64,000 nucleotides of DNA from Seison nebaliae (Eukaryota). Position 1 is the stretch's first letter. Every line of letters begins with the position of its first letter. The DNA lies in the NCBI GenBank assembly GCA_023231475.1, contig JALJEE010001774.1, forward strand, positions 1 through 64,000, given 5' to 3'. Shown here piece after piece: positions 2,849-63,525 of the stretch. The notes beneath the pieces were generated by a model. It was not told the DNA's origin and searched no databases. It saw only the letters and a program-made list of their open reading frames with translations. The position numbers were made by a program, and so were the translations under genes.

Positions 2849-4554
2849 TTATCCAAAATCTATCCGATCTCTTATACGTCTGCCATATAATTTAAATAAA
2901 ATTGCTGTGAATAAACTCAAATGTAACTGTTCAATTTCGGCTGCTTCCGATTTAGGGAACGATCGTCCTTCACCAGCGTGGATTTCATCGTTAATATATT
3001 CATCGATTTCTTCACTTGTCAATGTGGTGACCTGTTTGAGAAATGTTTATTATGATAATGGGAAATATGAAAACTTTGTTAAGATTAGTCAAATTCTGTA
3101 CAACTCTAGCAACGAAGTTGTCGATCTCATAATCTTTCGTCATATCTACAATGGTATTACGAGGTACTCGAGGTGGTTCTCTTGGCATTCGATTATATGT
3201 TCTCTTCATTTTTCTTGGATTAACAACATTGACATGAGATGGAATTGTTCGACCTATCAGATGATGATAATAATACAATAAAATAAAAAAGAAGAAAAAA
3301 CCATACATCGATGATTGGATTGATGGTCGGTTTGCTGACAACATGGAAGTTTTGGGAACTCGAGCATCTCTTGAAAATAGAGTTTGGTTAGTGGGAAGAA
3401 AAAATTAAATTTTTAAAATTAGAATAACTTCCGAATTCTAATACATACACAAATGGCTATGATGAGCATGACTAATAAAAATATCATTACACCGAGAACT
3501 ATATTAATTGTTGCTTTCTTTTTCCTCGTCGCTTCATCATCTGGTTCTACTGGTACTGGAAATGTGTGATTTACTTCAGGTTCTTTTTCCGGTTTCTTCG
3601 TCACTGTCTGACTTTTATGTTCCGCTTTAGTTTTATTTTTCGATTTATCTTCTTTTGGAGGATGTTTAGTGGACGAGTTCGATGGTATAGGAGTAGTTGA
3701 TGAATTCGAACTAGTTTTATTACTATTAGTTGTGTTACTTGTCTTGTCATGTGAAGTTATATTTGATGGAGCATCTGTAGGTCGGAGAGCAGTTAAATTT
3801 AAGTCATCAATTGAATGTATCCCAAATGCATTTACAACATAATCAGGAGCTAAATAAGTCGATCCTAAATTATAATAATCATTATCACTATCATCATATG
3901 CAGGATAGTAAGGAAATGGGATGTTTGACGAATCGACATTCTCCTTCTCAAGTACTTCCTCAGTCGGTTCACTATAATCAGGTAATTGTTCCGCAGGTTC
4001 AAGTGGGGAAGCGAAAGGATTACTCATTCGAGCATAAGCGGGAGATGTTTCTCGAGTTGGATAAATCGGTTGCATTCCTCTTCTCCTCAGTCCAAACCGA
4101 GTGATAGGTATAAAATGTGATAGTCGTCTTCGAGCTAAAACATTCCTACTACATATCTTACGACATGTCGGCATACATTGTGGTATACAATATTCTTTCA
4201 CCTTCAATATTTTCACTGGATTGTGTGCGAAACGATGAAATTTTTCATTCGACACACGTATCTTTTTAGCGGGAATAGCTTTAAAAAAAATTCGTTTGAA
4301 CAATAAAAAAACGGTTCGTAATAACCAAATCGCCCATACGTGTATATATGTTGTCTTCTTTTCGAACGTTTCTTTTTCGGTTGCGATCCCTTGTCTTGTG
4401 ACATTTCTTCCATTGAAGCAAAATCACCAGGTTGAGAAAAGTCATTATCTAACTCTTTCGATAAAGTTTGAAGCGAAATAAATTTATTTTTCGTATTGAT
4501 TACATTAGTATTAATGTAATTGAACGATAAAATTGTAAAATACAACAAAATCAT
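2849..4554 (-). CDS. Family member A: type I membrane protein (signal peptide, shared family motifs, Ser/Thr-rich stalk, TM helix, cytoplasmic tail), 5 exons
   Basis: Four GTT..AG introns join ORFs 4213-4626, 3419-4303, 3012-3344 and a final exon in frame, ending at TAA 2849-2851. Signal peptide MILLYFTILSF; TM IVLGVMIFLLVMLIIAICVCI. Confidence 0.75.
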
Positions 4555-4753
4555 TTTAAACAATGCGAAGGATGGAAAGAAGAAAATTATTTCACTTGTA
4601 CACGAGTTGGAAATATCTAGTTTCAATCGATCAATAAATAAAATATTGATTTAATTTTTCTACTTTTTTCAATAATCCTTAACATCATTAGATAATGATT
4701 AATTAAGTCAACAATGAAAGAAATTGTTACGCGTTAGTTCAAAATAGCTTATG

Positions 4754-5343
4754 TTAGGTTATATAATGAGATTGGCCATAAGACGAAGGTGAATAAGGAG
4801 TTAACGGACTGTAAGGTGTTAATGGAACAGTCATCCTAGCATAACCAGGATATTGTTGAGGACTTGGGTAGATGGGCGGTATGCTTCGTCTATGGTAAGG
4901 GCTGTGTTCTAACATTTTAAAATTATGGGCTAAACGTCGAAAAATAATGTCACCTTCAATTTGTTTTTTGGAAAGGACTCGGGCTTTCTCGCGATACAAT
5001 TTGTTCTCAAAGTTATACAATTTAACCGCAGAATAAGGTATATGGGCAGCTCCTTTGAAAGGAAAAAAATGAGAAACAAAAACAACATGTTCTAATAATA
5101 ACCATAAGTGTTGAAAGGATAATGTGAATGTCCATCTCGTTTCTGAACCTGTCTAGTTCTCGAATCATCAATAAGTCCTTTGTCTTGTGACATTTGCTCC
5201 ATCGAATCGTAATCTCCTTTCTGAATATAATAATTATCCATTTCGTTCACTAAATTGTTGTGCGAGTTACGTGTATTCTTCAGGTTGATGACGGTCGTTT
5301 CAACGAGATTTAGTAGGATTATACAGGAAAGTAGCGCGATCAT
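4754..5343 (-). CDS. Family member B: small secreted protein, 2 exons
   Basis: Signal peptide MIALLSCIILLNLVET, GDYDSMEQMSQDKG and KR site. An intron after FNTY-G joins ORF 4754-5020 in frame. Confidence 0.8.
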
Positions 5344-5869
5344 TTTAAACGATTGAAATGAGACAAAAATGAATTGGATGACAGATGAGGATTGTCAATT
5401 GATTTTCCTTTTCTAATTCGATTTATACTTTCCAATTTAATTGGAGATCAATATACATAATAATTTTTAATAATTTTTTTAAAAATTAATTTTTGTTACA
5501 ATAATTCTTTTCTTACTATTCTTTTATAGACTCTATACCAATCGATCGAGATTCTCTTACCAAATAACACCGATTGATCGACGTTGGCGATGATTGAAAT
5601 TTTTTAAATCTATTTTTTAAATATTATCCCGACGTGAATTTCATTAATAAACAATAATAATAATCGATTTTTATGATTATTTGAATCTCAAGTAGACTAA
5701 AATAAATCCAATAAAATATTACTTAAATAAAAAAATTAGAGATCAATGTTTATTGATGAAAAACACAGAAAAAACGGTGGTTGAAAACGACTATAGATAC
5801 TTAATAACAATCTTAATAATAACTGGAATGAATTTGATTCAAGAGGAAACATTAAGATAATAAAAATAG

Positions 5870-6426
5870 TTACACTCTTCGAAAATTGACAAATGGATTC
5901 CTCATATAACGAGGTACCATTCGATGAATCGGATAAATGGGAGAAATACTTCTTCTCACCTGATTATTCATCATGTTATATCTCTCACCTCCTGTCGTTG
6001 CAACACATTCAGGTTCACATTGTGGTGCACATTGTGGTTGACATTGATAAACCATTTTCTGTCTATGTTTCTTGCGCTGTCGATGTATTTTTGGTTTAGT
6101 TACTTTTAATTTGACGGCAGTAAATGGTATTCGAGCGGGTCCTTTTTTGAAGAAGAAATATAAAAATTGAAGGAGGATTAGAAGAAACCATATGTATTGA
6201 AAGGATAAGGTTCTTCTCTCTTTTCTACGTTTCTTTCTGCCGGCTCTCTGCTTAGACTACCTTTGTCGTGAGACATCTTCTCCATCGATGCGAATGCCCC
6301 AGGTAAAGAGTAATCGTTATTTAATTCGCTCGATAACGTGTTCAATAAATTTAATGTATTTTTCTTATTGATGTTGTTGGAATGAGCCAAATGGAATGAG
6401 AAAATCCCAAAATACAATAAAATCAT
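5870..6426 (-). CDS. Family member C: small secreted protein, 2 exons
   Basis: Signal peptide MILLYFGIFSFHLAHS, GAFASMEKMSHDKG and KR site. Same intron position as B, joining ORF 5870-6055 in frame (CQPQCAPQCEPEC, RRSISPIYP). Confidence 0.8.
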
Positions 6427-6481
6427 TTTAAACAGTAGGAAAAGATGAAAGAAGTAAACGATCGAACTATTTCATTTTCAA

Positions 6482-9210
6482 ATGAATCACACAGATGAAC
6501 ATTCCAATAATTTAGATGGCAATCGATATAATCTCATCTATCAAAATTCAGTATTGGAACATATACACAACTTAGAGAGTTGGGTGAATCGTCGATATGA
6601 TTCGATTTGGTTAATTGTCGGAGCGTTATATTTGACCATAGCCATTGCTTCCATCATTATTAATGTGTTGTCAATTTTAAAAATTAAAAATAATGTCGAT
6701 AAATTAGACAATTATTATATGGCAGCTATTTTTTCCCGTTCCATCGGAATCATGTATTCCTTCTTCTTCATCACTCCAATGGTTTGGTATTTGTTAGAGA
6801 AGGATACTCATAATTATTTCCATGGAATTCCATGTACAGTTCTCGGAATAGTTCACACATTTCTCACTCTAGCTATCGACTATTATTTAGCTCTCGAATA
6901 TATTTTCTGGTTAGTTTTTTTTATATTTTCATATCTTTATTCATTTTAATTTCACTAATATTAATTTAATTTTGTTAATTTAATTTTAATTTATTTTAAT
7001 TTATGTGAACTATATAAAATTTAATTTAATTTAGTTTTATTAATTTCATTCACTTTAATTTAATATTTTTAATTTCATTATTTAATTCTGTTTATCTTTA
7101 TATTTGGCAACCAAAAAATGACGTTTTAGTCTTGTAACATTTATTGAAGAATTTTCATAAAAGAATCTTAAGCTATATGGATCGATATGTTCGATAATAA
7201 TTATTATTTTCTCTCATTAATTTATTATTATTTTATCAATTTATTTTTCCACTACTTTTCTTCATCATCACTTCTCATTAGTTGTTCACAATCCACTGTT
7301 GTACCTAATATTTTCCGCCTATTTTTTCACATTCATAAGAGACGAGAATGTAAATAATCTACAATAGAAAAGTTTAATAAATTTCGTCCATCAACAAAAA
7401 ATTTAGCAGGTCAAATACCATAACATCATTCGACGGTGATGTACTTTTGAAGAATTTTTTATGATTTTTTTATATCAATGTCTTTTTCTTCCAACATTTT
7501 CATTTTTTCACACGAGAATCATGATTTAGATATGTTCAAATAATTTCTTTCAATGAAACTTTATTGAAATTCTTTAATGTCAAAAAAATATTGAAAAAAA
7601 TTTATTTGATTTTATTGTTTCAATGAAACTATATGAGACATCTAAAAGTTTAATAGATGAAATTTAAGTATTTGTCCCATTTCTTTTTTAGGGCTATCTC
7701 TGTCACGTTCACGATGGACGCCAAATCGCAATTGAACATTTTCTTGAGACGAATAATATTCGTGTCATTTCCATTATTATTAATTTATTCGATTGCACCA
7801 GCCTTCTGGTCAGCTCATGTATTTGTACCCGAAATTAATTCTTGTGTATATGATGTAAGAGATTTAGCGGTAGTACTTCTATTCCGAACGATCTTCCAAT
7901 TGTCGATACATATCGTTTTGTACTTATTCTTTCTACTCATTCTACTTTCTATTGTCAAAAATCAACAAACGATTATCAACATGTTACAGTTACAGTATGA
8001 CACTATCCTGTTTAATAAAGATGTCAACTTATTGAAACGTTATTCACTTCAATTGAATGCCTTAAATCAGTCACATACTAGAACTAAAAGTTCGGACAAT
8101 TCGTCATTCCGATTTCATAGAAGGAAAACTTTCGGTAAGTTTTTCAAAGAAAGTGAAGTGAAGTTACGAGAGACGTCAGAGAAGCAGCAGTTAGATGTTG
8201 CCCCAGATAAGGATCAGTTAATGACATATGTTGAACGAGATAACCGTTTGACAGAGATTGAGAAAGACACCGATATCATCAATAAAGAAATGACGATAAC
8301 TAAACAGACTTTATATTTTATGATTAGTCAAGCCGCGTTACATATACTTTATCTACTTCTCGTTCATTTATCCACTCTTCTCACATATTGGAACAACGAA
8401 TCGTTATTAGATCATCTTTATAATTATCAGTATATGATGGTACCGTTACTTTTAGCTAATATCATTTACATGATAATTATTCCATTAATTTTCATTCTAA
8501 TTAATCCCGATTGGATTAACATCACAATTTTCCATAAGGGTAGTAAGAAAATGAAGAAACAAGTCGACGAGAAAACGTCATTGAAACATCATTTGAAAAC
8601 GATCTCTTTGAAAGCTTATGAGATTTTCGACTTAAGAATTAGTTGTTGGCTCTTTTACACCATCAAATCGCCACTCTCTTTACAACAATTTCCTGAGCGA
8701 CATATTTACATTCCTTTAAGGAAAATGAGTGGACAAGTTAATGGTTCGAAATCGAAACACACTCCACAAAAACATTTGACCGAATGGTCATCGAAAAGAA
8801 ACGATCGATATTATAAAAAATTAAGACGATGGAAATTTATCGATCATGAAGATCGTTTTTTACACAATTTCTCAAACCGTTTCCATAACCATCATCCAGT
8901 GACGAAACTGAAAAAATCCGTCTCCGATTCCTATCTAGCTTGGCACCGTCTACATACGGAGAATGGTATCAGAACCATTACAGACGACGAACCAATTAAT
9001 GAGAATCGTGTTCTCTGGAACTTCGATACGGTTCGTGTGAACAAAGCTATCGGACGAGCAGATCGACCGCGTTGCCATAACGACCTGAGAATTTATTGTA
9101 GAAATGTTGAGAATGATTTAGCTACGACAACTTATTCGGATACCGAATGCTTTTCAGTTACCAATAATACCATAAAGAATAATATGTGTAGAACTTGTTT
9201 CTATTTCTAA
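6482..9210 (+). CDS. Highly divergent rhodopsin-class 7TM receptor, 2 exons (intron 6910-7691)
   Basis: TG|GTTAG...TAG|G rebuilds a Trp codon in frame. Seven hydrophobic segments, Cys at the top of TM3 and in ECL2, long ICL3 and C-tail. No DRY or NPxxY motif. Confidence 0.7.
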
Positions 9211-9500: not shown

Positions 9501-11004
9501 ATGACCGATAATTTGATTGACGGACATTGGGATGATTTGTTGAATATATTGAGGAATAAAGGTAAAATCATGGTGATGATGGGCGCCGGTTGTTCAACAG
9601 AATCAGGAATTCCAGATTTTCGGTGAATTATTTTTTTTTCGAAAAATTTCTTTCTAATTTTCTAGTTCACCAGAAACTGGTTTATATGCGACATTGAAAG
9701 ATTCTCAATTATCAAGACCAGAAGACATTTTCACATTGACATACTTTCGGAAGAATCCCAAACCGTTTTATGATTTGGCAAAGAATATTTTATTTCCAAT
9801 TCATTTTGCAATCAAAAAAAATCAAGAGAATTTGGATATAACTCAAAATTTCGTTTCACAATATCGACCGTCTTTATCACATTATTTAGTGAAATTATTA
9901 CAAGAGAAGAATAAATTGGGATATTGTTTTACTCAGAATATTGACGGATTGGAAAGATATGCAGGAATTGATGAGAACCGATTAATTGAAGCTCATGGGA
10001 ATATGTTCACAGGGAAATGTATCAAATGTTGGAAACGATATAATTTGAATGAAATTATTGAGAGAAGTGTTGCATCAAAAGATGGAATTCCTAGATGTAA
10101 CACAGATATGAGTGGAATGGACAAAAAGAAAATGATGAAATTAATTGCAGAATTGAACGACAATAATAATAATAATTGTGGTGGTGACGGTGATGATAAT
10201 TTAATAACAAATCAGGAAGAAGAAGAGAAAACTGAAATTTCAACAGAAATAACTGAAAAAGAAGAAGAAAATAGAACGACAGAAGAACCGAAAATTGAAA
10301 TTCGAACAGAAAAAATAGAAATTCCAATAGAACAAATTGAAAAAGAGGAAGAAAAAACGACAGTGGAAGAATCGAAAGATGATGTTCCTACATTTCCCCC
10401 AACAGCTTTTAATTTATTCGATGATGACGATGATGATTTTGTCAGTCTCTCCGAATTGACTAATAGAATTAAAAATTTAAAATTCGAGGAGAATCAGTCG
10501 CAAAATGCTCGTCCTGGAAATTGTTCAGGAATTCTTAAACCAGATATCGTATTCTTCGGAGAAGGGCTACCTGAAAAATTTATGAAATTTTCCAGGAAAA
10601 TTTTCGATGGAAACGCTCTCATTATTATGGGAACTTCATTGGAAGTTTATCCGTTTGCAAGTCTTCAAAATTTCGATGGATATCGATTATTATTAAACAT
10701 GAATCTTGTCGGTTCATTCACAAGTTCTTCGGAGAAGAAAGATTTGATGTTGTTGGGCAAATTGAAATACGGAGTCACTAAACTAATTCTGGACTTGGGA
10801 TGGGAGAAGGAAATGAGGAATTTGTTGATAGAAAGTAACGATAAAGAAATAGTTTTATTTTTTTTGAATTTAAAATTTTTTAAAATTTTTTTCAAGTTAA
10901 CAACATTCGACGAATGTTGCGAAAGAATGAAGAAAGATTATACGAAGAAACTTGTGCAGTATAGCGCATACGGACAACAACAAGCCAAATCATTGTTTAG
11001 TTAA
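9501..11004 (+). CDS. Class I NAD-dependent deacetylase (SIRT2/SIRT3-like sirtuin), 3 exons
   Basis: GAGCSTESGIPDFRSPETGLY (across intron 9623-9665), TQNIDGLE, EAHG, KPDIVFFGE and GTSLEVYPFASL. Second, in-frame intron at 10852-10896. Confidence 0.93.
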
Positions 11005-36300: not shown

Positions 36301-39300
36301 CATTGAATATCGTTAATCAATTTCAGAGTGAAGATGAATGTCAATCGACTTGTATTGAACCGAGAGAAGTTGAAGGTTAATTTTAGGAAAATTCAATTTT
36401 AAGTATTGACATGATAGAAATATCACAAAATGGATTATATAGATTGGTGTTATATGCCGAAAATTGAAGGTAAATGTTCTGGGAATGAATTGGGGGGAAG
36501 TGGTTGGCAATTCTATTTCGATACGATTACGAACAAATGTGAAATGTTCACTTATTCGGGTTGTAATGGAAATAAAAATCGTTTTGGGACAGAATTCGAA
36601 TGTTTGAAATTATGTAAATATGGAGAATTCATTCGGAAAGATCAGATTCAAAATAGTCAAGACTTTCCACTAAATTTCGATTTGATTCGAAGACAAATGT
36701 TTAATGTTGACGGTTCCAATGTTTATTGAAATTTATAAGTTCAATTTTTTGGTAGATGTTTGTGGTTTGCCGAGTGAACAAGGTCCATGTCGAGGTCAAT
36801 ATAACCGTTGGTTTTATAACGCAAAAATAGGGATTTGTGCACCGATGGTATATGGAGGATGTAAAGGAAATGCGAATAATTTCATTAAAAAAGAAGATTG
36901 TGAGAATCGTTGTAAGAAAGGCAATTCGAATTGTTAGTTAATTTTTCGATATTTCGAATTTTTCAAATTTCTTTTAGTTCGTTGTGTTCTTCCGAAATCG
37001 AGAGGAACTTGTCATGACATGTTAAGGAGATGGTATTTCAATGTGAAATCAATGAAATGTGAACAATTCTCATATAGTGGATGTGATGGTAATGGGAATC
37101 AATTCCATTCGAAAGAACAATGTGTGGTGGAGTGTGGTGGGACAATGGTGGGAATCGAATCTAATATGAATCAAAACAGTTTTATTTTATAAAGAAATTA
37201 TGAAATTAAATTAATTTGATTTCAGATAATCTTATTACGAAAATCGAGTCACGTTGTGATGCGACGGCGGCACCAGAAACGGTATTCGAAGTCAATAGTT
37301 ATTTCGACCAGAGGAAAGGTGTTCAGATATTTGTGAATAAATATCAGCAAGAGAATGGTGATAAATTATTTTATTATTTCAATAAAATTTCAAGTTTTCC
37401 CAAATTTATTTCTCGAAATTAAAACTGTTTAATTTTTAGAATCATGTCAACCAATAAAATATTATCGATATGAATCGATATTAACATCATCGGATCAAGA
37501 GAATGTTATGTCGATCTTGGATTATGAAAAACGATCGAGAGAAGATATTGTTAATTCGAATCTCTTCCTCAATCTCTCCATTTGCGAGAAAGTTTGTGAA
37601 GGAAAAAACTATGGTTTCTTTTTATTGTGCATTGTCTAACTTTATAATGATTATGAAGATATTTGTAAATTGGAATTCGAGGCAGGTAGTTGTGATAATT
37701 GGACGAATAAATATTATTATGATGATCGAACAGGAAGATGTCAACAATTCTATTATGGTGGCTGTGACGGGAATAAGAATAATTTCGATAGTGAATTTCA
37801 GTGTTATTTCAATTGTAACCAAGATGTGATCCGTGAGAAATTGAAGGAGAAAGAACAAATTACAACAACTCCAATTCTCACATTACCTACAACTACCACA
37901 CTAAATATTTTGGAGGAAGATATTTGTTAGAAATTTATATTTAAAAAAAATCTTAAAAATTTTTTCTTCAAAAATAGATGGAATGTGTTCCATGTCGATG
38001 TTGGTTGGAATTCCATGTAGTCGGAATGTATCTCATCATTTGAATGAATGGAAGAATTATTGGTATTATGATATACGGATACAATTGTGTAGTCAATTCT
38101 TTGGACATCAATGTGGTGGTAATCTTAACCGTTTTTTGAGTGAAGATGAATGTACGAAGAAATGTAAATATTCAAATTATTATCATCCAGATATCGGTTA
38201 TAAGAATGAGAATAATTTATTATTAGTTAGTAATCATTATGAGTTGGGAAAAGAACCCGAACTCTCCATAAGAGACGCAATTCTCAACTGGAATTCATAC
38301 GAGAAATCTAACTACCAAATGTCAAGTTTCTTTTTTCAAAAAACAATTTAATAATTTTCGATTTTCTAAAGATTACAATCTGAGAAAATGTTCATCGAAT
38401 TCGAATGATAATTTGAAAGTGAGTTGTGGATATCTGAATGAATATTCGAACGAATTAAATGAATTGTTGGGGAATGGTCTAATGAAAAGTTTTTTGACAA
38501 CAAACAAATCTTTACGAGTTTTCTCCATTCTGAATCATGTGGAGAGAGTTGTATTCGACAATAACTTCTGTCGTGCACGAAATATCTCTATAATTTTCAA
38601 TTTTATTTTGGATGATGAAACGAGAGAAATTTTGAATGAAAATCTTCTAAATGTTTTATCGGAAAATAATTCGGTTCTTGTCAATAAATGTTTCGAAAAG
38701 AAATCTCCATCAAATGCATTCGATCTTCTCCAATCGGAGGAAAATATGAATATAAGAAAATTGAATTCATATTTCTCATCAAGAATCTTTATGAATTATA
38801 AGGAATGTGCAGCGGTATGTGAACGATATGAAGCGAACAGTTAAAATTTCTTTCGATAATTTCTAGTTAAGGTAAATATCTTTCAGGAAAATGTTTCGCA
38901 CAAAGACAACAAATCAGATGTTATAATCGGCCGAATGATAAGAAGTATTATTATCATTCAAAGAAAAAGAAATGTCAAAAATTTCCGGATCGAGGTTCAT
39001 TCCCAAATATTTTAAAAGATAATGAAAATAATATTGTTTTAGTTTGTGGAACAGGAGATAATTCATTCAAAACTTTCGACAATTGTGATTATATTTGCGA
39101 TAAAGATTATTTCACCAAAGAAACCACTACTGATGATGATACACAAAGGAAAATTCAAAATTTACCTACTCCAAATTCTTCTCCTCATCCAACTTATCCG
39201 CCAAGAGAACGACAGACACAAAAACCGAAAACTTCGAGAATTACTCCACTTTTTACGACAACTACTTCATATTCAACAATTCGTATTAATGAACATATTG

Positions 39301-40663
39301 AACAATGTCCAAGTACAACAAGACGAATCGGTTTCTGTCGAAAAATTTGTGAGAAATTATCAGAATGTAATCCAAATGAGATTTGTTGTATTGATGCGAC
39401 TTTAAGGAATCCGTTCACCAATAAAGATCAACGATGTTGTCGAACAATTGAAGATACGAGTTCCTTCGTTTCTTTTCCGTAAAATTTCAAAAATATATTT
39501 TTTAGGTAAATTTATTTTAGTTAGTGGAAATAAGAGATTTTCGAATAATCATCCCGATGGTGAAGAATGGCTCCGTATTCGATCGCCGTATAATCTTCAA
39601 TGTGAGACGAATGCAAATAATTTACGTTTATATGACGCCCAAAATAAATTGTTGGGTGACACATCGAACGAGGCAACTCGACGATTAATAAGTTAAATTT
39701 TCGTTCGTACAAAATAAACCGAATAAATTTCTCAAGATAACAACATTAATATTATGACAACAAGCAACTCAATATTTATTGGAATTTATCGTATCAATAA
39801 ACAACATTATGGCACTTGGCGATGCTTATCATCAGTCAATGGAGTAACACTTCAACGGAGTGTGATGTTAAAGGAAGAAGGTTTCCTTATCTATTTCTTT
39901 TCAAGTCTTTTCATGTTAATCAGAACCTCTTCGAGTACATGTAACACCGAATGATCAACGGAAACATATTGACGTATCAGCTCAAATCAATTGTATCGTC
40001 AATGGGAAGCCTCAGGCGAATGTTAAGTGGCAATGGAGAAAATCCACTGAATTCCCATATCAGCAACTTAATACTAATTTAAAGTTCATTTTCTTTTCAA
40101 TTAACTTTTAATTATTTGGCGAAATATGAGTAGTGCGGAAGTTCGGCGAATTCCATCGGAAAATGGAATTAATTATCTATTGCGATTAAGAAGAATTCAA
40201 TCGAATAACGCCGGAATTTATGAATGTGTTGCAACAGATAATTTAGGAAGAATGGAGAGACGTACAAGTATTCTTCACGTGCTCAATCGTTAATAGACCA
40301 TCTCCATTATCGTTTTTTTGAAAATTGTATACATCTTCTAATGTTGTTGAAGGTCGACGCACTATCAATCAAGATCGAACGAAAATAACCACACTATCTA
40401 CAACATCGCCAATTGATGAAGAGAAATGTGTTGACAAGAATGTTCCAGGTAAGTTTATTTAAAAAAAATCTAATTTTTTCTCATTTTCCCTAAAGACTAA
40501 CAAAAAAATTTCTAATTGAAATTCTCCATTTTTTCTTTTCTTCATTAATTCTCTTTATCATAATTTCATCGATACAGGTATTCGTTGTGATCTGGTTGTT
40601 CGGTACAATATTTGTACTTATCGAAAAATTTTCGGTGAAATTTGCTGTGGGTGCAAAAAATAA
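33390..40663 (+). CDS. PAPLN: Papilin-like extracellular matrix protein (ADAMTS spacer, TSP1 repeats, papilin-type Cys repeat, ~8 Kunitz domains with some degenerate, 2 Ig, PLAC), >20 exons
   Basis: Signal peptide MYSILYLIFILVKISVIQT; spacer TTIPKGSKNILINE..NY; WLECSSSCGEG; CDISKYGCCLDGLTTAQGENYEGC; Kunitz motifs (YGGCKGNANNF and similar); Ig NAGIYECVATDNLG; PLAC CVD..CDLVVRYNICTY..EICCGC; stop 40661-40663. Confidence 0.85.
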
Positions 40664-44086: not shown

Positions 44087-45775
44087 ATGGTGGAAAATGA
44101 ATGTAATCAATTAATTCAATATAATGATTATACTCAATACAATGCTGTTTATTATACGATATTCGCTTGTTATATGCTCATGTCCATCATTGGCACCATA
44201 ACAAACAGTTTATTGATATTTGTTATACTTCTCAATCGTTCATTCCGATCTCAAATCAACAATATTTACCTTCTCAATTTAGCACTATGTGATCTACTAG
44301 TTTCCCTCATCAGTTTGCCATTGAAAGCTTTCGAATTACTCGTACCAATCACTTTAATTATTCCATCGGATCATTGGTTAATTCACACGTCAATTCTTTG
44401 TAACATTAATGAATTCACTGCGCCACTTCTCGTATTCTCATCCATTTATACATTAGTAGCAGTTTGTGCGGAAAGGTTAAATAATTTTTAAATAAAAATT
44501 CAATTAATCAATTAAATTCTCTTTCAAAGATACTTCGCTATTTGTCATCCAATGTCGACGTTGAAGAGTAATGGAAAGAAGAGAGCAGCAATCACTCTCA
44601 TTTTTAGTTGGTTGGCCTCCGCCATCATTTGTTGTGGTTTCCTCATCGTTAGATATAAACCGGAAATTCTTTGTGAAATCGGAAGTATTTTAAATCATTT
44701 GAGAGATAATCCAATGTTAAGACAATTCTATTCACCATATCTCAAAAATCAAACTATTGAATTGACCACTCCAAATTTGGAAGAATTTTTCATCGCCAAA
44801 TTGAATACTACCACATTTCCATCATTTACTACCGATGATATTTATTCTGACAATTCTTTCAACTATTTAACAATTAAACAGAATCTCCATATGAGATTGA
44901 GATGTCCACCAGCCACACCAGAAACTTATTATAAAAAATTACATGTCACTTTTCTATTTATCGTCGGTTACGCCTTACCAATGATTCTCATCACATTCCT
45001 TTGTGGTCGTATCATTTTCACTTTATACAAATCAACAAATTTCCATTCAGATTCCTTAAAGAACAATAGTCATGCCAATTATCCCCAATCATTCCGACAA
45101 ACCATCAAACGATTCACTTTGACCGATAATGAAATTTTAAAGAAACCGTTATCAGGAAATACACGGAAAAAATCATTTCTTCATATAAAACGCGATTCGG
45201 AAGTATCAATATTTTCAGATATAAACAAAAATTCAGATAATGATATTAACGACGGTAACAAATTATTAGATGGACATCAATCCTCCGAAACAAACGACAG
45301 GAAAAAATCGACAAATAATTTAAAACGGAAATTTTCCAGTTATATCGGAACATCACGTCGATTAACTACTCCGATCAATATGCCTGCATCAATACAACGA
45401 CAATCAGAAAACCGTTTAAAATTAGCAAAGATGATGTTAATCGTCATCTGGTCATTCATGTTAGCATGGACACCGTTTTTTATGATAAATATGTTTACTG
45501 TTTATGGTTCGAATGTTTTTCGTTATGGAAATTTCTTTTTTATCGGATCTCTAGTTCACTTTACCGGATTTTTAACTACTTGTACGAATCCATTAATTTA
45601 TATGTGTATGTCGGAACGATTCCGTCATCATATTCCAATCGCCTTCCGTAATTTCGCGAAAATTATTCATCTCATCAAATCCACCAACAAATCAAATCAA
45701 CGATCAACATATGAATTCTCATCGATGGATTATTCGATACGTCGATCAACAATCACACATCATCAAAAGATATGA
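44087..45775 (+). CDS. Rhodopsin-family neuropeptide GPCR (CCK/gastrin/QRFP-like), 2 exons (intron 44476-44529)
   Basis: NIYLLNLALCDLL, SIYTLVAVCAERYFAICHP across the intron, GYALPM, FMLAWTPF and CTNPLIY. Confidence 0.9.
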
Positions 45776-45956: not shown

Positions 45957-47284
45957 TTATTCCGTGCCGATCAATTCATTAACTAGAAAATGGAAAATTA
46001 TAAGAAAATTAAATTTTTAAAAATTTCAAAACTGTTCATTGGCATCTCATCGATCTGTGTCGAATAGAATTGTTCGATGTCACGTAATAATTGAATATCA
46101 TCACTTCGAGCGAAATTAATTGCGACTCCTTTTCGTCCAAATCGTCCCGAACGACCAATACGATGAATATATAATTCTCGATTATTTGGTAGATCATAAT
46201 TGATAACTAATGAAACAGAAGGAACATCTAGTCCCCGTCCACAAACATCGGTTGATATGAGAACTCGTCTAAAATAAAAAGAGAAAAATTTAAATTTAAA
46301 AAAATTTTTAAAAAAATTTTTAAAAAAATTTGAAAAGAAATTTAACGTTTTTGCATCTCGAAATTGTTTGACAATTCCTTCACGTACTTGTTGTTTCATA
46401 TCGCCATGTATTGATGATACAGTAAAATTAGATTCTTCCAATTGATTCGCTAACCATTCCACTTTCCGTCGAGTATTACAAAAAACTACTGCTTGAGCTA
46501 CCGTCACAGAATCATAAAGATCACATAAAGTTTCAAATTTCCATTCTTCCCGATCTACAGCAACGAAGAATTGTCGAATACCTTCCAATGTCAATTCGTC
46601 ACGATTCACCAAAATTCGAATTGGTTCCGTCATAAATTTATTTGTGATTTCAATAATTTCTCTCGGTAAAGTGGCGGACAAGAGAACAACTTGTGTCTCT
46701 GGTGGAAGATGACGATAAATAGCATGAATTTGTTCACGGAATCCTTTATTCAACATCTCGTCCGCTTCATCTAACACGAGAATAGAAATATTTGACGTTC
46801 TCAAATGTCCTCGTTCTATCATGTCAATTACACGACCAGGTGTCCCACTTATCACATGTTGACCATAATCTAATTTCCTGATATCTTCATTCAAATTCTT
46901 CCCACCAATACACGAATGACATTGCACGTTCATATAGTCACCTAAAGCTAACATGACACATTGGATCTGTTGGGCTAATTCACGTGTGGGAGACAAGACT
47001 AATGCTTGACAATCACGATGTTCAATTTGAAGTCGCTGCAATATGGAAATACAATAAGTGGCAGTTTTTCCAGTTCCTGATTGTGATTGTGCAATTACAT
47101 CTCGACGACGAATTATTGGACGGATGGCACGTTGCTGAATTGCTGACGGTTTCTCAAATCCATATGAATAAATGCCACGAAGTAAATTTCGGTTCAATCT
47201 CATATCATCGAAACTACGATAGACACCAATATTCTCATTCGTCTTAAAGTCTTTTTCGCTTAAATCATTTGTAATCGTTGGCAT
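45957..47284 (-). CDS. EIF4A3: DEAD-box RNA helicase eIF4A-III (exon junction complex core), 3 exons
   Basis: [76 protein letters not shown]. Introns at 46269-46346 and 45983-46032; the spliced C-terminus is MPMNINELIGTE*. Confidence 0.95.
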
Positions 47285-47754: not shown

Positions 47755-50700
47755 ATGTTTTTGCTGAAGCAACGTTCATTATACAGGAATTTATCCCGTT
47801 GTCGTATTGCCAGTACACAACGAGACTTCCAAACTTCGAAATTATTATCCAATTATGATAAGAAGAAAGAAAAAATAGTTCCCATAAACAAATTACTGGT
47901 TGCTAATCGAGGTTCCATATTCTCTTGTCTTTTTTTTTTTATTTCTAATCATCTTCATCAAATTTTTCTTTTTTTCTTATTTACTAAATAAATTATTGAA
48001 ATTGATTGATAAATAAATTTAATTTAAAAAAAATCTCAATTTGTTTACAGGTGAAATTGCGATAAGAATCTTTCGAGCTTGTACTGAACTTGGAATTCGA
48101 ACGGTTGGAATTTATTCGCCGCAAGATTTGGGACAAGTTCATATCATCAAAGCTGATGAGTCGTATTGTATTGGAGAGAATTTGGAACCATTACAAGCTT
48201 ATCTTTCTGTCGATCAAATTATTGAGACGGCAAAAGAAAATGGTGCAGATGCTGTGCATCCAGGATATGGTTTCTTATCGGAAAGAAGTGATTTTGCTAA
48301 AGCTGTGGAAGACGCTGGATTAATTTATGTTGGTCCAAAATCATCAGTTGTGAAATTGATGGGTGATAAAGTGGAAGCGAGAAAATGTGCAATCGCTGCA
48401 AATGTTCCAGTCATTCCAGGAACGGATCAACCATTAATATCAAGTGAAGATGCTCTGGAATTTTGTGAAGAACATGGAATGCCAATTATGTTGAAAGCAG
48501 CATATGGTGGTGGTGGTCGTGGAATGAGAATTGTGAAAAGACTAGAAGATTTAGAGTCTCAATTTAATGCAGCTTTTAGTGAAGCGAAATCAGCATTTGG
48601 AAATGGAAGTTTATTTATCGAACGATATATGGAACGACCAAGACATATTGAAGTGCAGATTTTAGGAGATAAATATGGAAATATTGTTCATTTATATGAG
48701 AGAGATTGTAGTGTTCAACGACGACATCAAAAAGTCATCGAAATGGCACCAGCAGCAGCTTTGTCACAACAACAACGTGACGCTTTGACAAATGATGCGT
48801 TAAAATTGGCGAAATATGTGAATTATTCGAATGCAGGAACTGTTGAATTCTTGTTAGATACGAAAACGAATAAACATTATTTTATTGAAGTGAATGCTCG
48901 ATTACAAGTGGAACATACGGTTACAGAAGAAGTAACAGGAATAGATCTCGTTCAATCTCAAGTTCGAATAGCAGAAGGACATTCATTAAGACAATTGGAA
49001 TTAACACAACCAAATATTTCAATTAGTTCATGTGCAATCCAATGTCGAATGACAACAGAAGATCCAACGAAAAATTTCCAACCAGATACTGGTCGTATCG
49101 ATGTATTTCGTTCGGGTGAAGGTTGTGGAATTCGAATTGATTCAGCTAGTGCATTCTCTGGTGCCATCGTCTCACCATATTATGATAGTTTATTAGTGAA
49201 AGTGATAGCAAGAGCAAAAGATCATCGAGGAGCTGTCAATAAAATGTTGAGAGCATTGAAAGAATTCCGTATTCGTGGTGTGAAGACGAATATTCCATTT
49301 TTGTTCAATGTATTAAATCATCCTAAATTCAATGGGAAAGATATTGGGAAAGTTGATACATTGTTCATTGACGAACATCCCGAACTCTTCAAATTGCCAT
49401 GGGGACAAAATCGAGCGAATAAAATTTTGAAATATTTAGGTGAAGTCACTGTGAATGGTCCGACTACACCGATGGGAGTTCCTGATGTCAAACCAGCAAA
49501 TGTTCAACCAATCGTTCCACCAACAGATCGTAATACAAAATTGACAGGTTGGAGAGACATTTTAACGAAGGAAGGACCTCATGCATTCGCTCAAGCAATT
49601 CGTTCTCATAAACCGTTATTATTAATGGATACGACAATGAGAGATGCTCATCAATCTCTTTTAGCTACAAGAGTTCGATCATATGATATTTATAAAATCG
49701 CTCCATATGCAGCACAAGAATTAAATGGATTATTAGCATTGGAGAATTGGGGTGGTGCCACATTCGATGTCGCTATGAGATTTTTATATGAATGTCCTTG
49801 GGAAAGATTAATTCGTATGAGAGAATTAGTTCCAAATATTCCATTCTCAATGTTACTTCGTGGTGCAAATACGGTAGGATATACCAATTATCCTGATAAT
49901 GTACTCATCAAATTCGCCGATTTATCAGTCAAATTAGGAATGGACATTTTCCGTATTTTCGATTCTTTAAATTATATGCCCAACATTAAAGCTGGTATGG
50001 AAGCGGTGGGAAATGCTGGTGGTGTAATCGAAGCTGCTGTTTCTTATACAGGAAATATTGCTTCGACGAAAGAAGGACAGAAATATACTTTAAAATATTA
50101 TACAGATATCGTTGATGAAATGGTAAAATCTGGTACTCATATTATCGGAATTAAAGATATGGCAGGTTTATTAAGACCACAAGCAGCGAAAATTCTTATC
50201 GATGCCATTCGACAGAAACATCCAGATACACCAATACATTTACATACTCATGATACATCAGGTTGTGGTGTAGCTACTCATTTAGCGGCAGCTGAAGCTG
50301 GTGTAGATATCGTCGATGTAGCATGTGATACAATGTCTGGAATGACATCTCAACCATCAATGGGTGCGATAATTGCTGCTTTAGAAAATACACCGAAACA
50401 AACAGATATCAATTTAGAAGATACTTTCCCTTATTCGACATATTGGGAACAAGCGAGAAATCTCTATAAACCATTTGAATGTACTCATACAACGAAAAGT
50501 GGAAATTCCGATGTATTCTTTAATGAAATTCCTGGTTCTTTTTCAATTTCATTGTATTTTCTTATTTCTTATAATTTTCATTGAAATTAGGTGGACAATA
50601 TACTAATCTACAATTCCAAGCATATTCATTAGGCTTAGGAGAACAATTCGAAGAAGTGAAGAAAGCATATATTGATGCCAATCAATTATTGGGAGATATC

Positions 50701-51746
50701 ATTAAAGTTATCATCTTTTTTCTCATCTCATTTATACTCTCTATTTAGGTAACACCATCAAGTAAAATTGTTGGAGATTTAGCTCAATTTATGGTACAGA
50801 ATAAATTGACGAAAGAAGAAGTAGAAGAGAAAGCAGACGAATTAAATTTCCCACAATCCGTCGTCGATTTCTTCCAAGGTAACATCGGAGAACCATATGG
50901 AGGTTATTTTACCCAATATTCATTTCCATCAAATTTACCATCAAAAAAATTTTTTTTTCAATTTCTATCAAAATTTAAATTTCCATTTTAAATTTATATT
51001 TTTGTTATTTAGGATTTCCGGAGGAATTAAGAAAGAAAGTTCTCAAAGGAAAACCAATCGTTCATGGTTACATAATTTTAATTTTTTAAGGATTTTTTTT
51101 TATTTCAATTTTATTTTCAGGAAGACCTGGCGAACATATGGAACCGTTGGATTTCGATGAAGTGGTGAAAGAGTTGAAGAAGATTGATGTGGATTCTCAT
51201 GAACCAATTAAAGAGAAAGATATCATAAGTGCAGCATTATATCCACAAGTGACGAAGGACTTTCTTCGAATGAGAAACGAATATGGTCCAATGGAGAAAT
51301 TGGAGACTCGAGTCTTTTTTACCGGTCCAGAAATATCGGAAACTGTCACATTAGAGATAGAGAAAGGTAAACGATTAACGATCAAATTGATTGCAATCGG
51401 TGATCTAAATATGAAGACTGGAGAGAAGGAAGTCTTCTTTGAAATGAATGGACAAATTCGATCGATTATGATCAAAGACAAAAAAGCGTCATCGAATTTG
51501 AAAATTCATCCGAAAGCGAATGAAAACGATATTGGATCAATTGGTGCTCCAATGCCTGGATCAGTGATGTCAGTCGCCGTCAAAGTTGGAGATAAGGTAA
51601 AGAAAGGCGATTCATTATTAGTAATGAATGCGATGAAAATGGAAACTAATATCACCGCACCGTTCAATGGAAAAGTAACGGAAATTTTAGTTCAATCAGG
51701 TGACAAATTGAGTGGCAACGATTTATTATTGAAGATTAGCGAATAA
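47755..51746 (+). CDS. PC: Pyruvate carboxylase, mitochondrial, 6 exons
   Basis: Presequence, [16 protein letters not shown], biotin carboxylase motifs, [24 protein letters not shown] and the biotinyl AMKM motif. Introns at 47912-48050, 50535-50590, 50707-50748, 50903-51012 and 51067-51120. Confidence 0.97.
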
Positions 51747-58753: not shown

Positions 58754-59192
58754 ATGCATAAACTTCTTCCAATCATCTGTCTCTTATCTGTCACTATCTC
58801 ATCTGTTTACTCCATCCAATGTTACCTCTGTGCACCAGGAACTGCCGATTGTGATTTACAAGGTAAAAAGTTCAGAAAGAGTCCATTGACTTATACAACA
58901 CATTGTCAAGGAAGTTGTGCGGTTAGTGAATACTTGAAGTTCTCTCTTTTTCTTATTCCTCCTTTAGAAACGATGGGTAAAAGATCCACTGACAAATAAA
59001 CGACAGATTATGAGAACATGTGACGTTCCCGGTTGTGCTAATATTACCAATCACGAAGTCAACACCGGATTATATATCTATGAAACTCATTGTTGTCAGA
59101 ATAAAGACTTTTGTAATAACTCACCAACAATCACCAAATCAGTATTTCTGATCATTTCAACAGTACTTTTATCAATGATCCTTCGATTTTAA
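58754..59192 (+). CDS. GPI-anchored Ly6/uPAR three-finger protein, 2 exons (intron 58922-58967)
   Basis: Signal peptide, IQCYLC, GSCAK, IMRTC, CCQNKDFCN and a hydrophobic C-terminal GPI signal. The intron joins the two ORFs in frame. Confidence 0.88.
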
Positions 59193-60191
59193 TTGAGCTA
59201 ATGTGAACATTTATTTTCTTGTTGTCTCGCCGATTTATCTATTTTCCAATTCTACTCAATCACTCCAATGTCTTTTGTCATTAAATGTTATCCAAAAAAA
59301 CTTCAAACAAATTTTTTCTATGTATCACATTTTTTAAGAACAAGAACTTTAAATGAAAAATTTAATTTTCATTCAATATCAGTCATTGTAGAAAGATAAT
59401 AACTATTCTCCCATATTATCTGAAATATAAAGAAATAATAATATCTGAAAGTTTTCGTTCTCAAATATAAAGAATGATTAATTTCTATCTAATAATTATT
59501 TATCATTCTATTGGTCATTGAGCCGCCGAGCAATATCGCCGGATAATGATGGAGAACAACTTTCGAAGAACCATAATTACGGTGAAGAAGAATAAAACTG
59601 TAATCTGAAATATGTCATAAGCCAAAGGAACAGGAAAAAAAATTATGTTTCAGGAACAAATTTTTTTGTCTAACTTTTATCATTTGTTCCAGAACAGCTG
59701 TTAATTATTCTCATCTAACAATTTCTAAAAGTTCCTAACTTTGTTCCATATCATTAGTCAATTTACACAGTTATTCATGTGGTCATTAGCGTTGTATTGT
59801 TTCGATTGTAGATAATTTTTTATATTATTTTATTTTTAAATTTATTTCCCAAAAACTTTAAATATAAGGATACAATAGGAATATAAATAAAAATTAAATA
59901 CGATTAAATAGATACGATATAAATAAATTAATAGTTCTTTTCCTCTAAAAAAGTTGAGACATAAACGTATGAAAGTGAGAAAAAAATTGAGAACTTTTCG
60001 AAATGTTAATAACGGGTTGAGAACGGTAAGAAAAGAAGAAAACAAAATTTTTTAATTATATCTATCTACATGAAATTAACAATTTGTTTGACTATATATG
60101 TTCGATTAATGATATCTATTTCATTTATGATTATATTGATTTTTTGAAAGAAGATGTGAATAGAAACTGAATGGTTTCAATGTATTAACAA

Positions 60192-60986: not shown

Positions 60987-61703
60987 TTCTTGATTTTTAT
61001 AATACGGAGAATAAGAGAACGGTTTTCAGATGATTTTTATACACTCGAAACTATTTCACTAAATCTTTCATTAAAGTTATTATTTCAAATTGTTATTAAG
61101 ATTAATTTTATGACATTGGAAATAAAAAACATATCATCAAGTTACGTCATCTAGAAAATGTTTTTTGTTTTATATAATAATTTTGATATCGAGATATTAT
61201 CGAGAACGAATTTTCATCATTAACGATTAAAAACCATCAATCAACGAAGAAAGGATAAAGTAAAATTTATTTGAATTTCTCATGAAGAATTTAATGGAGG
61301 AACAATTAATCGAATTATGAATTTATTCTTCTACAAATTTATTGAAACTATCTCAAATTTAATATTTAATAATTCAAATTTCATTCCGTCATATTACACA
61401 TAATCGTCAAATTATAAAAGCTTAAACATAATTGGAGAATTACTCGAGGAGGATTAAGCCGATTAAATTAATTTTTTATAGAAATAATTTAAAATTTATT
61501 TATTTAAAAATCATCAGAATTTGGTTTTGATCATTATTTTCTTTTTCTTCCTGTGTCTTTCATAAATGGACGGGCCAAATTTCTAAATAAACTCTTACAA
61601 AGAAATTTGTGTTTATTATAAAAGAAAGTTCATCGGTAGTCTTGAAAAATCTCTAAAAATTGAACATTTATCATCAGAGAAGGTTCATAAGTTTGATTAG
61701 ATA

Positions 61704-63525
61704 ATGTTAAGGAATCGTTTCTCTTTATTTACAAATCAATGTCGATGGAATTCGACATTAGTAAAAGATTTGAAAAATATTTGTAAAAATAATTGTAAAA
61801 TAAGTAGTGGTCCATCGATCATCCAACAACATTCTCATGATGAATCTCATCATCGGTTTTCCTTTTCTTTTATTAATTTTCACTTTATATAATAATTGAA
61901 AAAATTTCTGAAGAAAATTTCTTCCAAACATTGTAATTTTTCCGACGAATGAAGAAGATATCTCATCCATTCTATCATATTGTAACAAAAATTTTATTTC
62001 TGTAATTCCTTATGGCGTTGGAACAGGATTGGAAGGTGGAGTAGTTCCGTTGAAAGTTAGAAATTTAATGAGTCGATTTTAAATGAAACGTTTCGAAAGG
62101 ATAATTCGATTTCGATAAATATGGAGAAAATGAATAAAATTATTGAAGTGAATCCATTCGATTTTGATTGTATCGTTGAAAGTGGTGTGACGAGAGAGAA
62201 ACTTAATCATTTCTTGAAAGATGATGGTCTTTATTTCCCTATCGGTTTCCTCTTCATTTTTTATATAGAATTATGAGATTATTAATTTCAAATAGATCCA
62301 GGTGCTAACGCTTCACTTGGGGGAATGTGTTCGACATCAGCCAGTGGAACAACAGCTGTTCGATATGGAACGATGAAAGAGAATGTTCTAAATTTACGAG
62401 TGGTCCTTCCATCCGGTGAGATAATAAAAACAGCCGGAAAACAATGTCGTGCCAGGTTCCACATTTTTTCTTCTTAATAAAAGAGATAATTTGAGAAATT
62501 TTAAAGAAAAAGTTCAGCTGGATTAAATTTGACGAGTTTATTTGTGGGATCAGAAGGTACACTTGGTGTCATTTCTGAGGCTACATTAAAATTACATGCT
62601 GTACCGATGGAAGTTTATATCTTTAACTCATTTTCGAATATTATTCCATTCTTAGTTAGGTGTTTGTGTCGTTTCATTTAAAAATGATCAGATAACACAC
62701 GAGGCAGTAAATACAATTTTATTATCAGGAGTGACATTATCTCGAATGGGTTGGTTAAATTTGTAGAGAAGTTAATTCGATTTTGGATAATGAGAATAGA
62801 ATATTTGAATGATGTAATGGTTGGAGCGTGCAATAAATATTCGAATTTATCTCTTCATAAATTGCCACATCTTTTCATCGAAGTGGAAGGTGTCGATAGT
62901 GATGAATTAAATATGAAATTGGAAAATATTCGATCATTATGTGAATCTTTCGAACCGAAATCATTGGAAATAGCGTTAAGCTTAGAGGAACGAAAGAAAT
63001 TATGGGCCGCCCGTCACAATTGTCTTTATGCAACGAAAAATATGAGGAACAATTCTGAGATGTATGTCACTGATATATGTGTACCATTATCAAACATTGG
63101 ACCATCGATTGAATTTAGTCGTAAATGTTTGGATGAAACCAAATTAATCGGTTTATTATTTCCTTCATCATTCTATGTTAATATCATTCTTTTAGGAACA
63201 ATTCTTGGTCATTTAGGTGATGGGAATTATCATTTATTTATTCATGTCAATTCAAATGACGAATTAGAAATAGCGAAAGATCTTTCTACCAAAATTGCAG
63301 AGTTTTTTTTAAATTTCTAACTCAAACAAAACTTCTTTTTTTTAAAGACATGCTATATCTTTAGATGGTACTTGTACAGGAGAACACGGAATAGGAATCG
63401 GTAAACGACATCTGCTAAAGAATCAGTTTGATCCGTTGACCTATAATTTCATGAAATCGTTGAAGAAACATGTTGATCCAAATGGAATAATGAATCCAAA
63501 CAAAATGTTTTATCTCGATGAATAA
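61704..63525 (+). CDS. LDHD: FAD-dependent D-lactate dehydrogenase, mitochondrial, 9 exons
   Basis: [93 protein letters not shown]. Eight introns of 43-58 nt all restore the frame. Confidence 0.95.

What the first reader, a model, noticed from the sequence alone, without database searches (positions are those of the whole stretch)
2849..63525. Window-wide shift of the 5' splice site to GTT, lacking the usual GTRAGT consensus
Seen: of 28 introns I reconstructed outside papilin, 27 start GTT. That includes all 8 in LDHD (GTTTT, GTTAG, GTTTC, GTTCC, GTTTA, GTTGG, GTTTA, GTTTT), all 5 in PC and both in eIF4A3, where conserved protein sequence fixes the boundaries. The exception is a GTG in the sirtuin. 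Positions +4 to +6 show no AGT consensus. Papilin introns I read are also mostly GTT, with one GTC and a canonical GTAAGT in the longer last intron (40449-40578). Established: animal donors usually have A or G at +3 and pair with the U1 5' end and the U6 ACAGAGA box. Inference: this lineage may have altered U1/U6 snRNAs or use intron-definition-dominated recognition of ~45-nt introns.
Basis: partly seen in the sequence, partly recalled or inferred. Interest (0 to 1): 0.85.

Follow-up and report, generated by a model that had tools for sequence, protein, structure and literature searches.

The report
GTT intron starts in rotifer Seison
In this stretch of DNA from the tiny marine animal Seison nebaliae, almost every predicted intron begins with GTT instead of the GTA or GTG that animals normally use, which likely means its splicing machinery reads intron starts by a changed rule.

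Summary
Confirmed. The window is Seison nebaliae (Seisonidea, Syndermata): three proteins match named NCBI models on one contig. Of 54 introns in 12 genes, 51 start GTT; database protein models supply 43 of them (41 GTT). Alignment to non-Seison proteins, blind to +3, recovers 14 of 14 donors, all GTT; the same aligner gives 0 of 26 GTT in other eukaryotes. T-rich composition does not explain it (P=2e-8). A weak +4A/+5G signal survives, so 'no consensus' is slightly overstated. Most likely mechanism (0.5, untested): a U1 snRNA changed opposite +3, as in Entamoeba, working on ~48-nt introns. A published BUSCO table scores METTL16 missing in Seison alone among 25 syndermatans, but the +4U shift this predicts is absent. 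Not obtained: RNA junctions, U1/U6 sequences, any rotifer or acanthocephalan introns, other contigs. My searches found no paper on Seison donors. The scan noted GTT donors before in the protist Bonamia (unchecked AI notes); my look-ups showed none in an animal.

The parts
2849..4554 (-). Seison-specific membrane-type protein (SNEBB_007807), 5 introns, all GTT: 4325-4279, 3428-3370, 3301-3254, 3074-3032, 2927-2880
   Evidence: Exact mapping of NCBI model P0131; four of the five I had called by hand beforehand
4754..5343 (-). Paralogue b of the same family, 1 intron 5102-5053, GTT
   Evidence: Hand model, open ATG-to-stop frame; only possible in-frame GT donor
5870..6426 (-). Paralogue a of the same family, 1 intron 6188-6142, GTT
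   Evidence: Hand model; only possible in-frame GT donor
6482..9210 (+). Hydrophobic, probably multi-pass membrane protein (no Pfam match), 1 intron 6910-7691 (782 nt, the longest), donor GTTAGT
   Evidence: Hand model with open frame; Pfam blank
9501..11004 (+). SIRT2/3-type sirtuin, 2 introns: 9623-9665 GTGAAT (exception) and 10852-10896 GTT
   Evidence: Hand model; SIRT3 match; +3-blind pick
30358..32407 (+). Unassigned protein with one hydrophobic segment, 2 introns 30503-30551 and 30795-30839, both GTT
   Evidence: Hand model with open frame; no homology support
33390..40663 (+). Papilin-like Kunitz-repeat protein, 25 introns: 23 GTT, GTC at 33560-33607, GTAAGT at 40449-40577
44087..45775 (+). 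Rhodopsin-family GPCR, 1 intron 44476-44529, GTT, splitting the ER-Y motif
   Evidence: Hand model; Pfam 7tm_1 on both exons
45957..47284 (-). eIF4A3, 2 introns 46346-46269 and 46032-45983, both GTT
   Evidence: First intron fixed by human eIF4A3 alignment and by spliced alignment to the L001 protein; same codon and phase as an intron in locus L006; second intron by hand
47755..51746 (+). Pyruvate carboxylase (SNEBB_007816), 5 introns, all GTT: 47912-48050, 50535-50590, 50707-50748, 50903-51012, 51067-51120
   Evidence: NCBI model P0001; recovered from other animals' proteins alone
58754..59192 (+). Small cysteine-rich Ly6/CD59-like protein, 1 intron 58922-58967, donor GTTAGT
   Evidence: Hand model; weak Pfam CD59 match, E=0.004
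61704..63525 (+). D-lactate dehydrogenase LDHD (SNEBB_007821), 8 introns, all GTT: 61856-61913, 62056-62099, 62245-62295, 62456-62506, 62613-62655, 62750-62799, 63151-63195, 63302-63347
   Evidence: NCBI model P0121; all 8 donors recovered with two non-Seison proteins

Best explanation
Seison nebaliae starts 51 of 54 predicted introns in this window with GTT, likely because the U1 snRNA base that faces intron position +3 has changed from U to A, so that the major spliceosome would select GUU donors genome-wide. Shown: the +3T rule, short G-poor introns, purine-ended exons, a residual +4A/+5G signal. Inferred: a U1 arm reading ACUAAC in place of ACUUAC would pair only with U at +3, whereas the standard U pairs with A or G; the core helix would be the exon end plus GUU, topped up by +4A/+5G where the exon end pairs poorly or the intron is long; intron length and composition would supply the rest of the specificity. 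A loss of U6 m6A (METTL16) may have helped to flatten +4..+6 but is not needed for the model.
For: The signal that remains downstream is the U1-type one: of 12 donors with +5G, 9 have +4A and 1 has +4U (P=0.003 against background); 7 of 8 donors after a pyrimidine-ended exon have +4A against 17 of 46 otherwise (Fisher P=0.016); the 782-nt intron has GTTAGT. Exon -1 is a purine in 46 of 54 against 54% of coding bases (P=1e-6). The rule holds at an old intron position (eIF4A3 codon 313, phase 2, shared with locus L006, whose donor is GTA). Precedent: Entamoeba, with U at +3 and +4, has a compensating U1 arm and an unchanged U6 ACAGA (bioRxiv 10.1101/2022.06.08.495308, results read).
Against: No Seison U1 or U6 sequence was seen. 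The same preprint reports standard U1 arms in Thecamonas, five Mamiellales and 69 yeasts with atypical donors, and PMC10581693 found the arm invariant in 227 Saccharomycotina, so compensation is the exception, though those are +4 changes. Seison donors are far looser than Entamoeba's: with the changed arm they would average only 4.6 of 7 pairs. The compensation tests are post hoc, rest on 8 and 12 donors, and two related tests were blank (-1G against not, P=0.75-1.0; exon-side against intron-side match, rho=-0.13, P=0.34). GTA, GTG and GTC donors exist (3 of 54). One contig only.
Confidence: 0.5

Rival explanations
1. The snRNA arms are standard, and +3U is imposed later or by proteins: a reduced spliceosome (no METTL16 and so unmethylated U6, no U5-40K, LSm2 or SPF45, perhaps a diverged U1C, LUC7 or PRP8) would rely on U5-exon pairing and on a G-U wobble between U6 G44 and +3U.
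For: In the BUSCO sheet of PMC12256650, METTL16, LSm2 and SPF45 are scored missing in Seison alone of 25 syndermatans, U5-40K in Seison and one bdelloid (column checked). +3 faces U6 G44, and METTL16 mutants shift to sites with stronger U5 pairing (PMC11732430). Exon ends here are purine-rich. Roy and Bowser note that +3U could add pairing to U6 ACAGA.
Against: METTL16 loss predicts +4U, but +4 is A 24, T 20 of 54 against 32% and 50% background, and +5G donors prefer +4A. G44 would pair best with C, yet GTC is 1 of 54. SNRNP27, PRP8, PRP6 and PRP31 are scored complete. 76 of the 674 BUSCO genes not lost in the Seison-acanthocephalan stem are scored missing in Seison (11%), so one such call is weak and may be a detection failure.
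Confidence: 0.33
2. Donor recognition has merely relaxed to exon-end plus GT in very short introns, and a T-rich mutation bias, perhaps shared with other rotifers and acanthocephalans, fills +3 with T.
For: Introns are 50% T; +6 to +10 sit at background; acceptor -3 is near background (T 27, A 17, C 10, G 0); five branch-site patterns show no enrichment (P=0.14-0.94). No relative could be examined.
Against: +3T is 94% against 50% for intron interiors and 61% for GT inside introns (P=2e-12 and 2e-8); +3 carries 0.71 bit, +6 to +10 at most 0.07. Relaxation predicts about 32% A at +3; 1 of 54 is seen. Long introns obey the rule too (7 of 8).
Confidence: 0.1
3. The pattern is an artefact of gene prediction or of choosing GTT sites by eye, or is local to this contig.
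For: No RNA junction was seen. How the database models were built is unknown to me. A short-window homology score left 4 of 8 LDHD junctions ambiguous when averaged over distant, mostly prokaryote-like homologues. 11 of 54 introns are my hand calls.
Against: Spliced alignment to non-Seison proteins, blind to +3, gives the same donor in 14 of 14 introns, while the same aligner gives 0 GTT among 26 GT donors of 13 other eukaryote loci. A composition model blind to +3..+6 picks GTT in 49 of 54, although only 31 of 110 rival in-frame donors are GTT; 8 of 9 introns with a single possible donor are GTT. Twelve genes on both strands over 61 kb agree.
Confidence: 0.04
4. The introns were spread recently by an intron-making mobile element whose end reads GTT.
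For: Known route to odd donors elsewhere; the copepod GA/GG introns are described as recent gains (PMC5714493, abstract).
Against: No intron family: the best pairwise score (49) lies within the maxima of 20 shuffles (32-51); no common end duplication. An eIF4A3 intron position shared with L006 also has GTT.
Confidence: 0.03

Closest known systems
Entamoeba GUUUGU(U) donors with a co-evolved U1 snRNA (Roy and Bowser, bioRxiv 10.1101/2022.06.08.495308; abstract, introduction, two of three parts of the results and one discussion section read)
   Same: U at +3 in nearly all introns (96.9-98.5% GUUUGN there, 94% GUU here); GT-AG ends kept; host-associated lineage with a reduced gene set.
   Different: Entamoeba is a protist with few introns and a strict 6-7 nt signal including +4U and +5G; Seison is an animal with about 3 introns per gene in this window and only +3 fixed, +4 split between A and U, +5G in 22%. 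The U1 change is shown in Entamoeba and untested in Seison.
Saccharomycotina +4A-to-+4U switch linked to loss of METTL16 and SNRNP27K (PMC10581693, passages and section 5; PMC11732430, passages and part of section 9)
   Same: Lineage-wide change of donor preference; METTL16 is scored missing in Seison in a published BUSCO table.
   Different: The changed position is +4 there and +3 here; Seison shows no +4U preference and SNRNP27 is scored complete.
Ordinary animal U2-type donors, with C. elegans as a short-intron benchmark (PMC6140464, passages)
   Same: GT-AG ends, G-rich -1, a +4A/+5G component.
   Different: C. elegans has A at +3 in 58% of introns and fewer than two AGU matches at +4..+6 in 27%; Seison has 1 of 54 and 35 of 54.
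GA and GG donors of the copepod Eurytemora affinis (PMC5714493, abstract and opening)
   Same: An animal with a lineage-specific change in donor recognition.
   Different: There +2 is relaxed in about 12% of introns, apparently recent gains; here +3 is switched in nearly all introns, including an old position.
+1 shifted-register donors (GTT-NN-GT), known to me only from earlier AI notes of this scan
   Same: Intron starts with GTT.
   Different: The shifted signal needs G at +6; Seison has it in 1 of 54 and GT at +6/+7 in 0 of 54.

Membership tests
Major (U2-type) spliceosomal introns | GT-AG ends whose removal restores conserved protein | tested here: met
   54 of 54 GT-AG; exact mapping of four database proteins; 14 of 14 donors from foreign homologues
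Major (U2-type) spliceosomal introns | Purine at +3 within a GTRAGT-like donor | tested here: not met
   2 of 54 have a purine at +3; 1 of 54 is GTRAGT
Major (U2-type) spliceosomal introns | Excision seen in RNA | not testable with these tools
   No run giving splice joints was obtained
Entamoeba-type transformed donor with co-evolved U1 | Near-universal U at +3 | tested here: met
   51 of 54
Entamoeba-type transformed donor with co-evolved U1 | Strict +4U and +5G (GUUUG) | tested here: not met
   GTTTG in 1 of 53; the intron added later is GTTAC; +4T 20 and +5G 12 of 54
Entamoeba-type transformed donor with co-evolved U1 | U1 5' arm changed to complement the donor | not testable with these tools
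   No snRNA gene in the window; no genome held
Entamoeba-type transformed donor with co-evolved U1 | Intron-poor genome | tested here: not met
   54 coding-region introns in 12 of about 17 genes in 64 kb; one window only
METTL16-loss (+4U) splice systems | METTL16 absent | tested here: inconclusive
   Scored missing in Seison only, in a published BUSCO table; no search of my own was possible
METTL16-loss (+4U) splice systems | Preference for U at +4 | tested here: not met
   +4 A 24, T 20, C 9, G 1 against 32% A and 50% T background
Shifted-register donors (GTT-NN-GT) | G at +6, GT at +6/+7 | tested here: not met
   1 of 54 and 0 of 54
Introner (mobile-element) introns | Families of similar introns with end duplications | tested here: not met
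   Best pair score within shuffle range; 47 of 54 have end repeats of 2 nt or less

The most novel reading that the evidence does not exclude
Seison is an intron-rich animal whose major spliceosome has been recoded: a U1 arm with A opposite +3, with U6 m6A lost along with METTL16, and ancestral donors across the genome rewritten from GTR to GTT on the seisonid branch alone, the first such case in animals.
Probability: 0.3. Interest if true: 0.85.

Novelty: new variant of a known kind. Interest (0 to 1): 0.68.

Why it matters
The purine at +3 is one of the steadiest features of animal splice donors. A lineage that has replaced it in nearly all introns poses a sharp question: how can many loose donors and the machine that reads them change together? 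The one described +3U system I found in print is an intron-poor protist with a strict signal; Seison seems intron-rich with a loose one. The genome, a transcriptome and relatives on both sides (acanthocephalans, bdelloids, monogononts) are published, and the species is reported to hold two diverged lineages (PMC8351084), so the U1, U6 and METTL16 predictions can be checked at once. In practice, gene finders trained on ordinary animal donors may mis-model Seison genes, which could inflate reported gene loss.

Tried and rejected
Rfam: 0 hits at gathering score, one chance-level SmY hit at E=0.56. Sequencing runs: no RNA holder listed; laying X1, X2, X6 and X7 on 44001-59700 gave no joint at any predicted intron; X1 and X2 were laid as DNA-like contigs and X6, X7 laid nothing; this says nothing about splicing. 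LDHD and papilin were not covered by any laying. The metagenome scan with eIF4A3 returned 80 loci; the 23 eukaryote-like ones examined have GC 42-66% and none could be named as a rotifer; 13 with introns served as an unnamed control, the other 57 loci were not used. A short-window homology score supported 5 of 5 PC and 4 of 8 LDHD junctions and preferred other junctions for LDHD introns 2, 4, 6 and 7; whole-gene spliced alignment to P0122 and P0125 then gave all 8 donors, with the acceptor of intron 4 six bases downstream; one of three PC references (P0108) did not span the first intron. The first +3-blind run had one training exon out of frame and gave 46 of 53; the corrected run gave 49 of 54. 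A coding-potential scan of eight intergenic stretches found no further exons; UTR introns and stop-free in-frame introns may be missed (one such was found only through P0131). Locus tags imply 8 public models between SNEBB_007807 and SNEBB_007816 where I count 9 genes. Rejected: shifted register, introner origin, AT content, intron length as the cause. Literature: Seison nebaliae + intron (5 papers), splice site + rotifer + Seison, Seisonidea set, Adineta donors, bdelloid donors, atypical donors, Seison + spliceosom: none describes Seison or rotifer donor usage; passages of PMC8351084, PMC10125929 and PMC7310846 gave none either. Most subscription papers are not in the library, the supplement of PMC10125929 was listed but not read, and preprint supplements were not seen, so a donor logo for Seison or its relatives may exist there.
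Full report
Source. The long pyruvate carboxylase exon is 99% identical to SNEBB_007816 of Seison nebaliae, next hits about 65%. LDHD (SNEBB_007821) and a gene at 2849-4554 (SNEBB_007807) match models on a contig of the same length, 83,868 bases. The window is thus from S. nebaliae, the epizoic sister group of thorny-headed worms, with a compact genome of about 46 Mb and 32% GC (PMC8351084, passages).

Intron set. Four database proteins map letter for letter onto the window with GT-AG introns: PC 5, LDHD 8, the papilin-like P0130 25 and P0131 5, together 43 introns, 41 GTT. I added 11 by hand in eight genes, each giving an open ATG-to-stop frame, 10 GTT and one GTG. Total 51 of 54 GTT, one each of GTA, GTG and GTC. 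Median length 48 nt; 46 of 54 are 60 nt or shorter.

Is it a prediction artefact? Three checks that do not see position +3. (a) Spliced alignment to foreign proteins (limpet, frog and annelid PC; two non-Seison LDHD-like proteins; an eIF4A3 from locus L001) returns the same donor for 14 of 14 introns tested, all GTT. The same aligner on 13 unnamed eukaryote eIF4A3 loci from metagenomes gives 15 GTG, 10 GTA, 1 GTC, 0 GTT and one GC donor. An earlier short-window score had left four LDHD junctions unsettled. (b) A codon-versus-intron composition model with +3..+6 set flat picks the listed donor in 51 of 54 and a GTT donor in 49 of 54; rival in-frame donors are GTT in 31 of 110; in 41 informative introns it picks 38 GTT against 19.5 expected, reached in 0 of 200,000 random draws. 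The candidate range was centred on my listed introns, so this tests the donor, not the existence of the intron. (c) Where only one in-frame GT donor exists, 8 of 9 are GTT. No junction was seen in RNA.

Is it composition? Intron interiors are 50% T, 32% A, 12% C, 6% G, and 61% of non-donor GT in introns are followed by T. Against these, 51 of 54 has P=2e-12 and 2e-8. +3 holds 0.71 bit over background, +5 0.32, +4 0.10, +6 to +10 at most 0.07.

Rest of the signal. Exon -1 is G 25, A 21, C 4, T 4, purine-enriched over coding background (P=1e-6). +5G occurs in 12 of 54 and goes with +4A (9 of 12). Donors after pyrimidine-ended exons have +4A in 7 of 8 against 17 of 46 (P=0.016); two related tests were blank, so this compensation is a hint. 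Acceptors are T-rich with -3 T 27, A 17, C 10, G 0, and five branch-site patterns were not enriched over shuffles. Seven of eight introns over 60 nt start GTT, so the rule is not confined to micro-introns. The first eIF4A3 intron sits at the same codon and phase as an intron of locus L006, which starts GTA: one old position that now reads GTT. No intron family or end duplication was found, and the shifted-register reading fails (+6G 1 of 54).

Mechanism. Established: +3 pairs with the U1 5' arm ACUUAC at first recognition and later faces U6 G44 weakly, while +4 faces m6A43 (PMC11732430). Inferred: a U in the U1 arm accepts A or G, which gives the usual GTR; an A would accept only U, which matches the near-exclusive GTT. 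The leftover preference for +4A with +5G is the one U1 would impose. Entamoeba shows that this change can happen: donors GUUUGU, U1 arm ACAAAC, U6 ACAGA unchanged. I put this at 0.5 because compensating U1 changes are rare among lineages with odd donors and no Seison snRNA was seen. The main rival is a change at the U6/U5 or protein level. It gains from a published BUSCO table (PMC12256650 supplement, rows read) in which METTL16, LSm2 and SPF45 are missing in Seison alone among 25 syndermatans and U5-40K in Seison and one bdelloid, while SNRNP27, PRP8, PRP6 and PRP31 are complete. It loses because METTL16 loss predicts +4U, which is absent, because G44 would favour C at least as much as U, and because about 11% of the genes at stake are scored missing in Seison (76 of 674). 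The two readings can both hold.

Comparison and novelty. It works like the Entamoeba system at +3 but fails that system's other marks (strict +4U/+5G, few introns), so I do not file it there. It keeps the GT-AG ends of major introns but not the purine at +3: C. elegans has A at +3 in 58% of introns (PMC6140464), Seison in 1 of 54. Ten literature searches found no account of Seison or rotifer donor usage; the library lacks most subscription journals. Earlier AI notes of this scan report GTT donors with AAG acceptors in the protist Bonamia and shifted donors in other protists; they are unchecked and none concerns an animal or this genome.

Limits. One contig, 54 predicted introns, no RNA, no snRNA, no relative. 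Whether acanthocephalans or bdelloids share the bias is open; the metagenome scan gave no rotifer locus. Verdict: observation confirmed; new variant of a known kind; interest 0.68.

Noticed in passing
window 40449-40577 (+): The only GTA donor overlaps a GTT four bases on (40453) that reaches an AG at 40495, a 43-nt intron of typical length. That splice would stay in frame and swap the cysteine-rich end of the papilin-like protein for a hydrophobic tail of about 77 residues; it may be only translated T-rich intron.
   Followed up: partly
acceptors of the 54 introns: AAG in 17 of 54; -3 looks like background apart from no G, so the usual pyrimidine preference at -3 seems relaxed. LDHD intron 4 has AAG and CAG acceptors six bases apart.
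   Followed up: partly
PMC12256650 supplement, BUSCO sheet: ZMAT5 (recalled as a minor-spliceosome protein) is scored missing in Seison and both acanthocephalans but present in all 22 others; no minor-type donor was seen among the 54 introns.
   Followed up: no
window 2849-6426 (-): Three tandem paralogues with a shared first exon type and intron position; the search with the largest found only its own Seison model.
   Followed up: partly
window 53410-54861 and 56585-58159 (+): Two intronless low-complexity genes (one Gly/Met/Pro-rich, one Ser/Asn/Pro-rich) share two short conserved blocks and look like paralogues; no Pfam match. Possibly structural proteins.
   Followed up: no
window 11000-26400: About 15 kb with no coding signal in my scan, upstream of an intronless 1131-codon Ig-domain receptor-like frame (26413-29808), unusual in so compact a genome. 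A chance-level SmY hit lies at 17966-18045 (-), E=0.56.
   Followed up: partly
window 60192-61025 (-): Intronless sulfotransferase (Pfam Sulfotransfer_3); origin, including horizontal transfer, not examined.
   Followed up: no
window 9658-11004 (+): The sirtuin carries an insertion of about 20 residues and a long acidic insertion of about 140 residues relative to human SIRT3.
   Followed up: no
window 1-125: A 22-nt tandem repeat, five full copies and a part, at the window's start.
   Followed up: no
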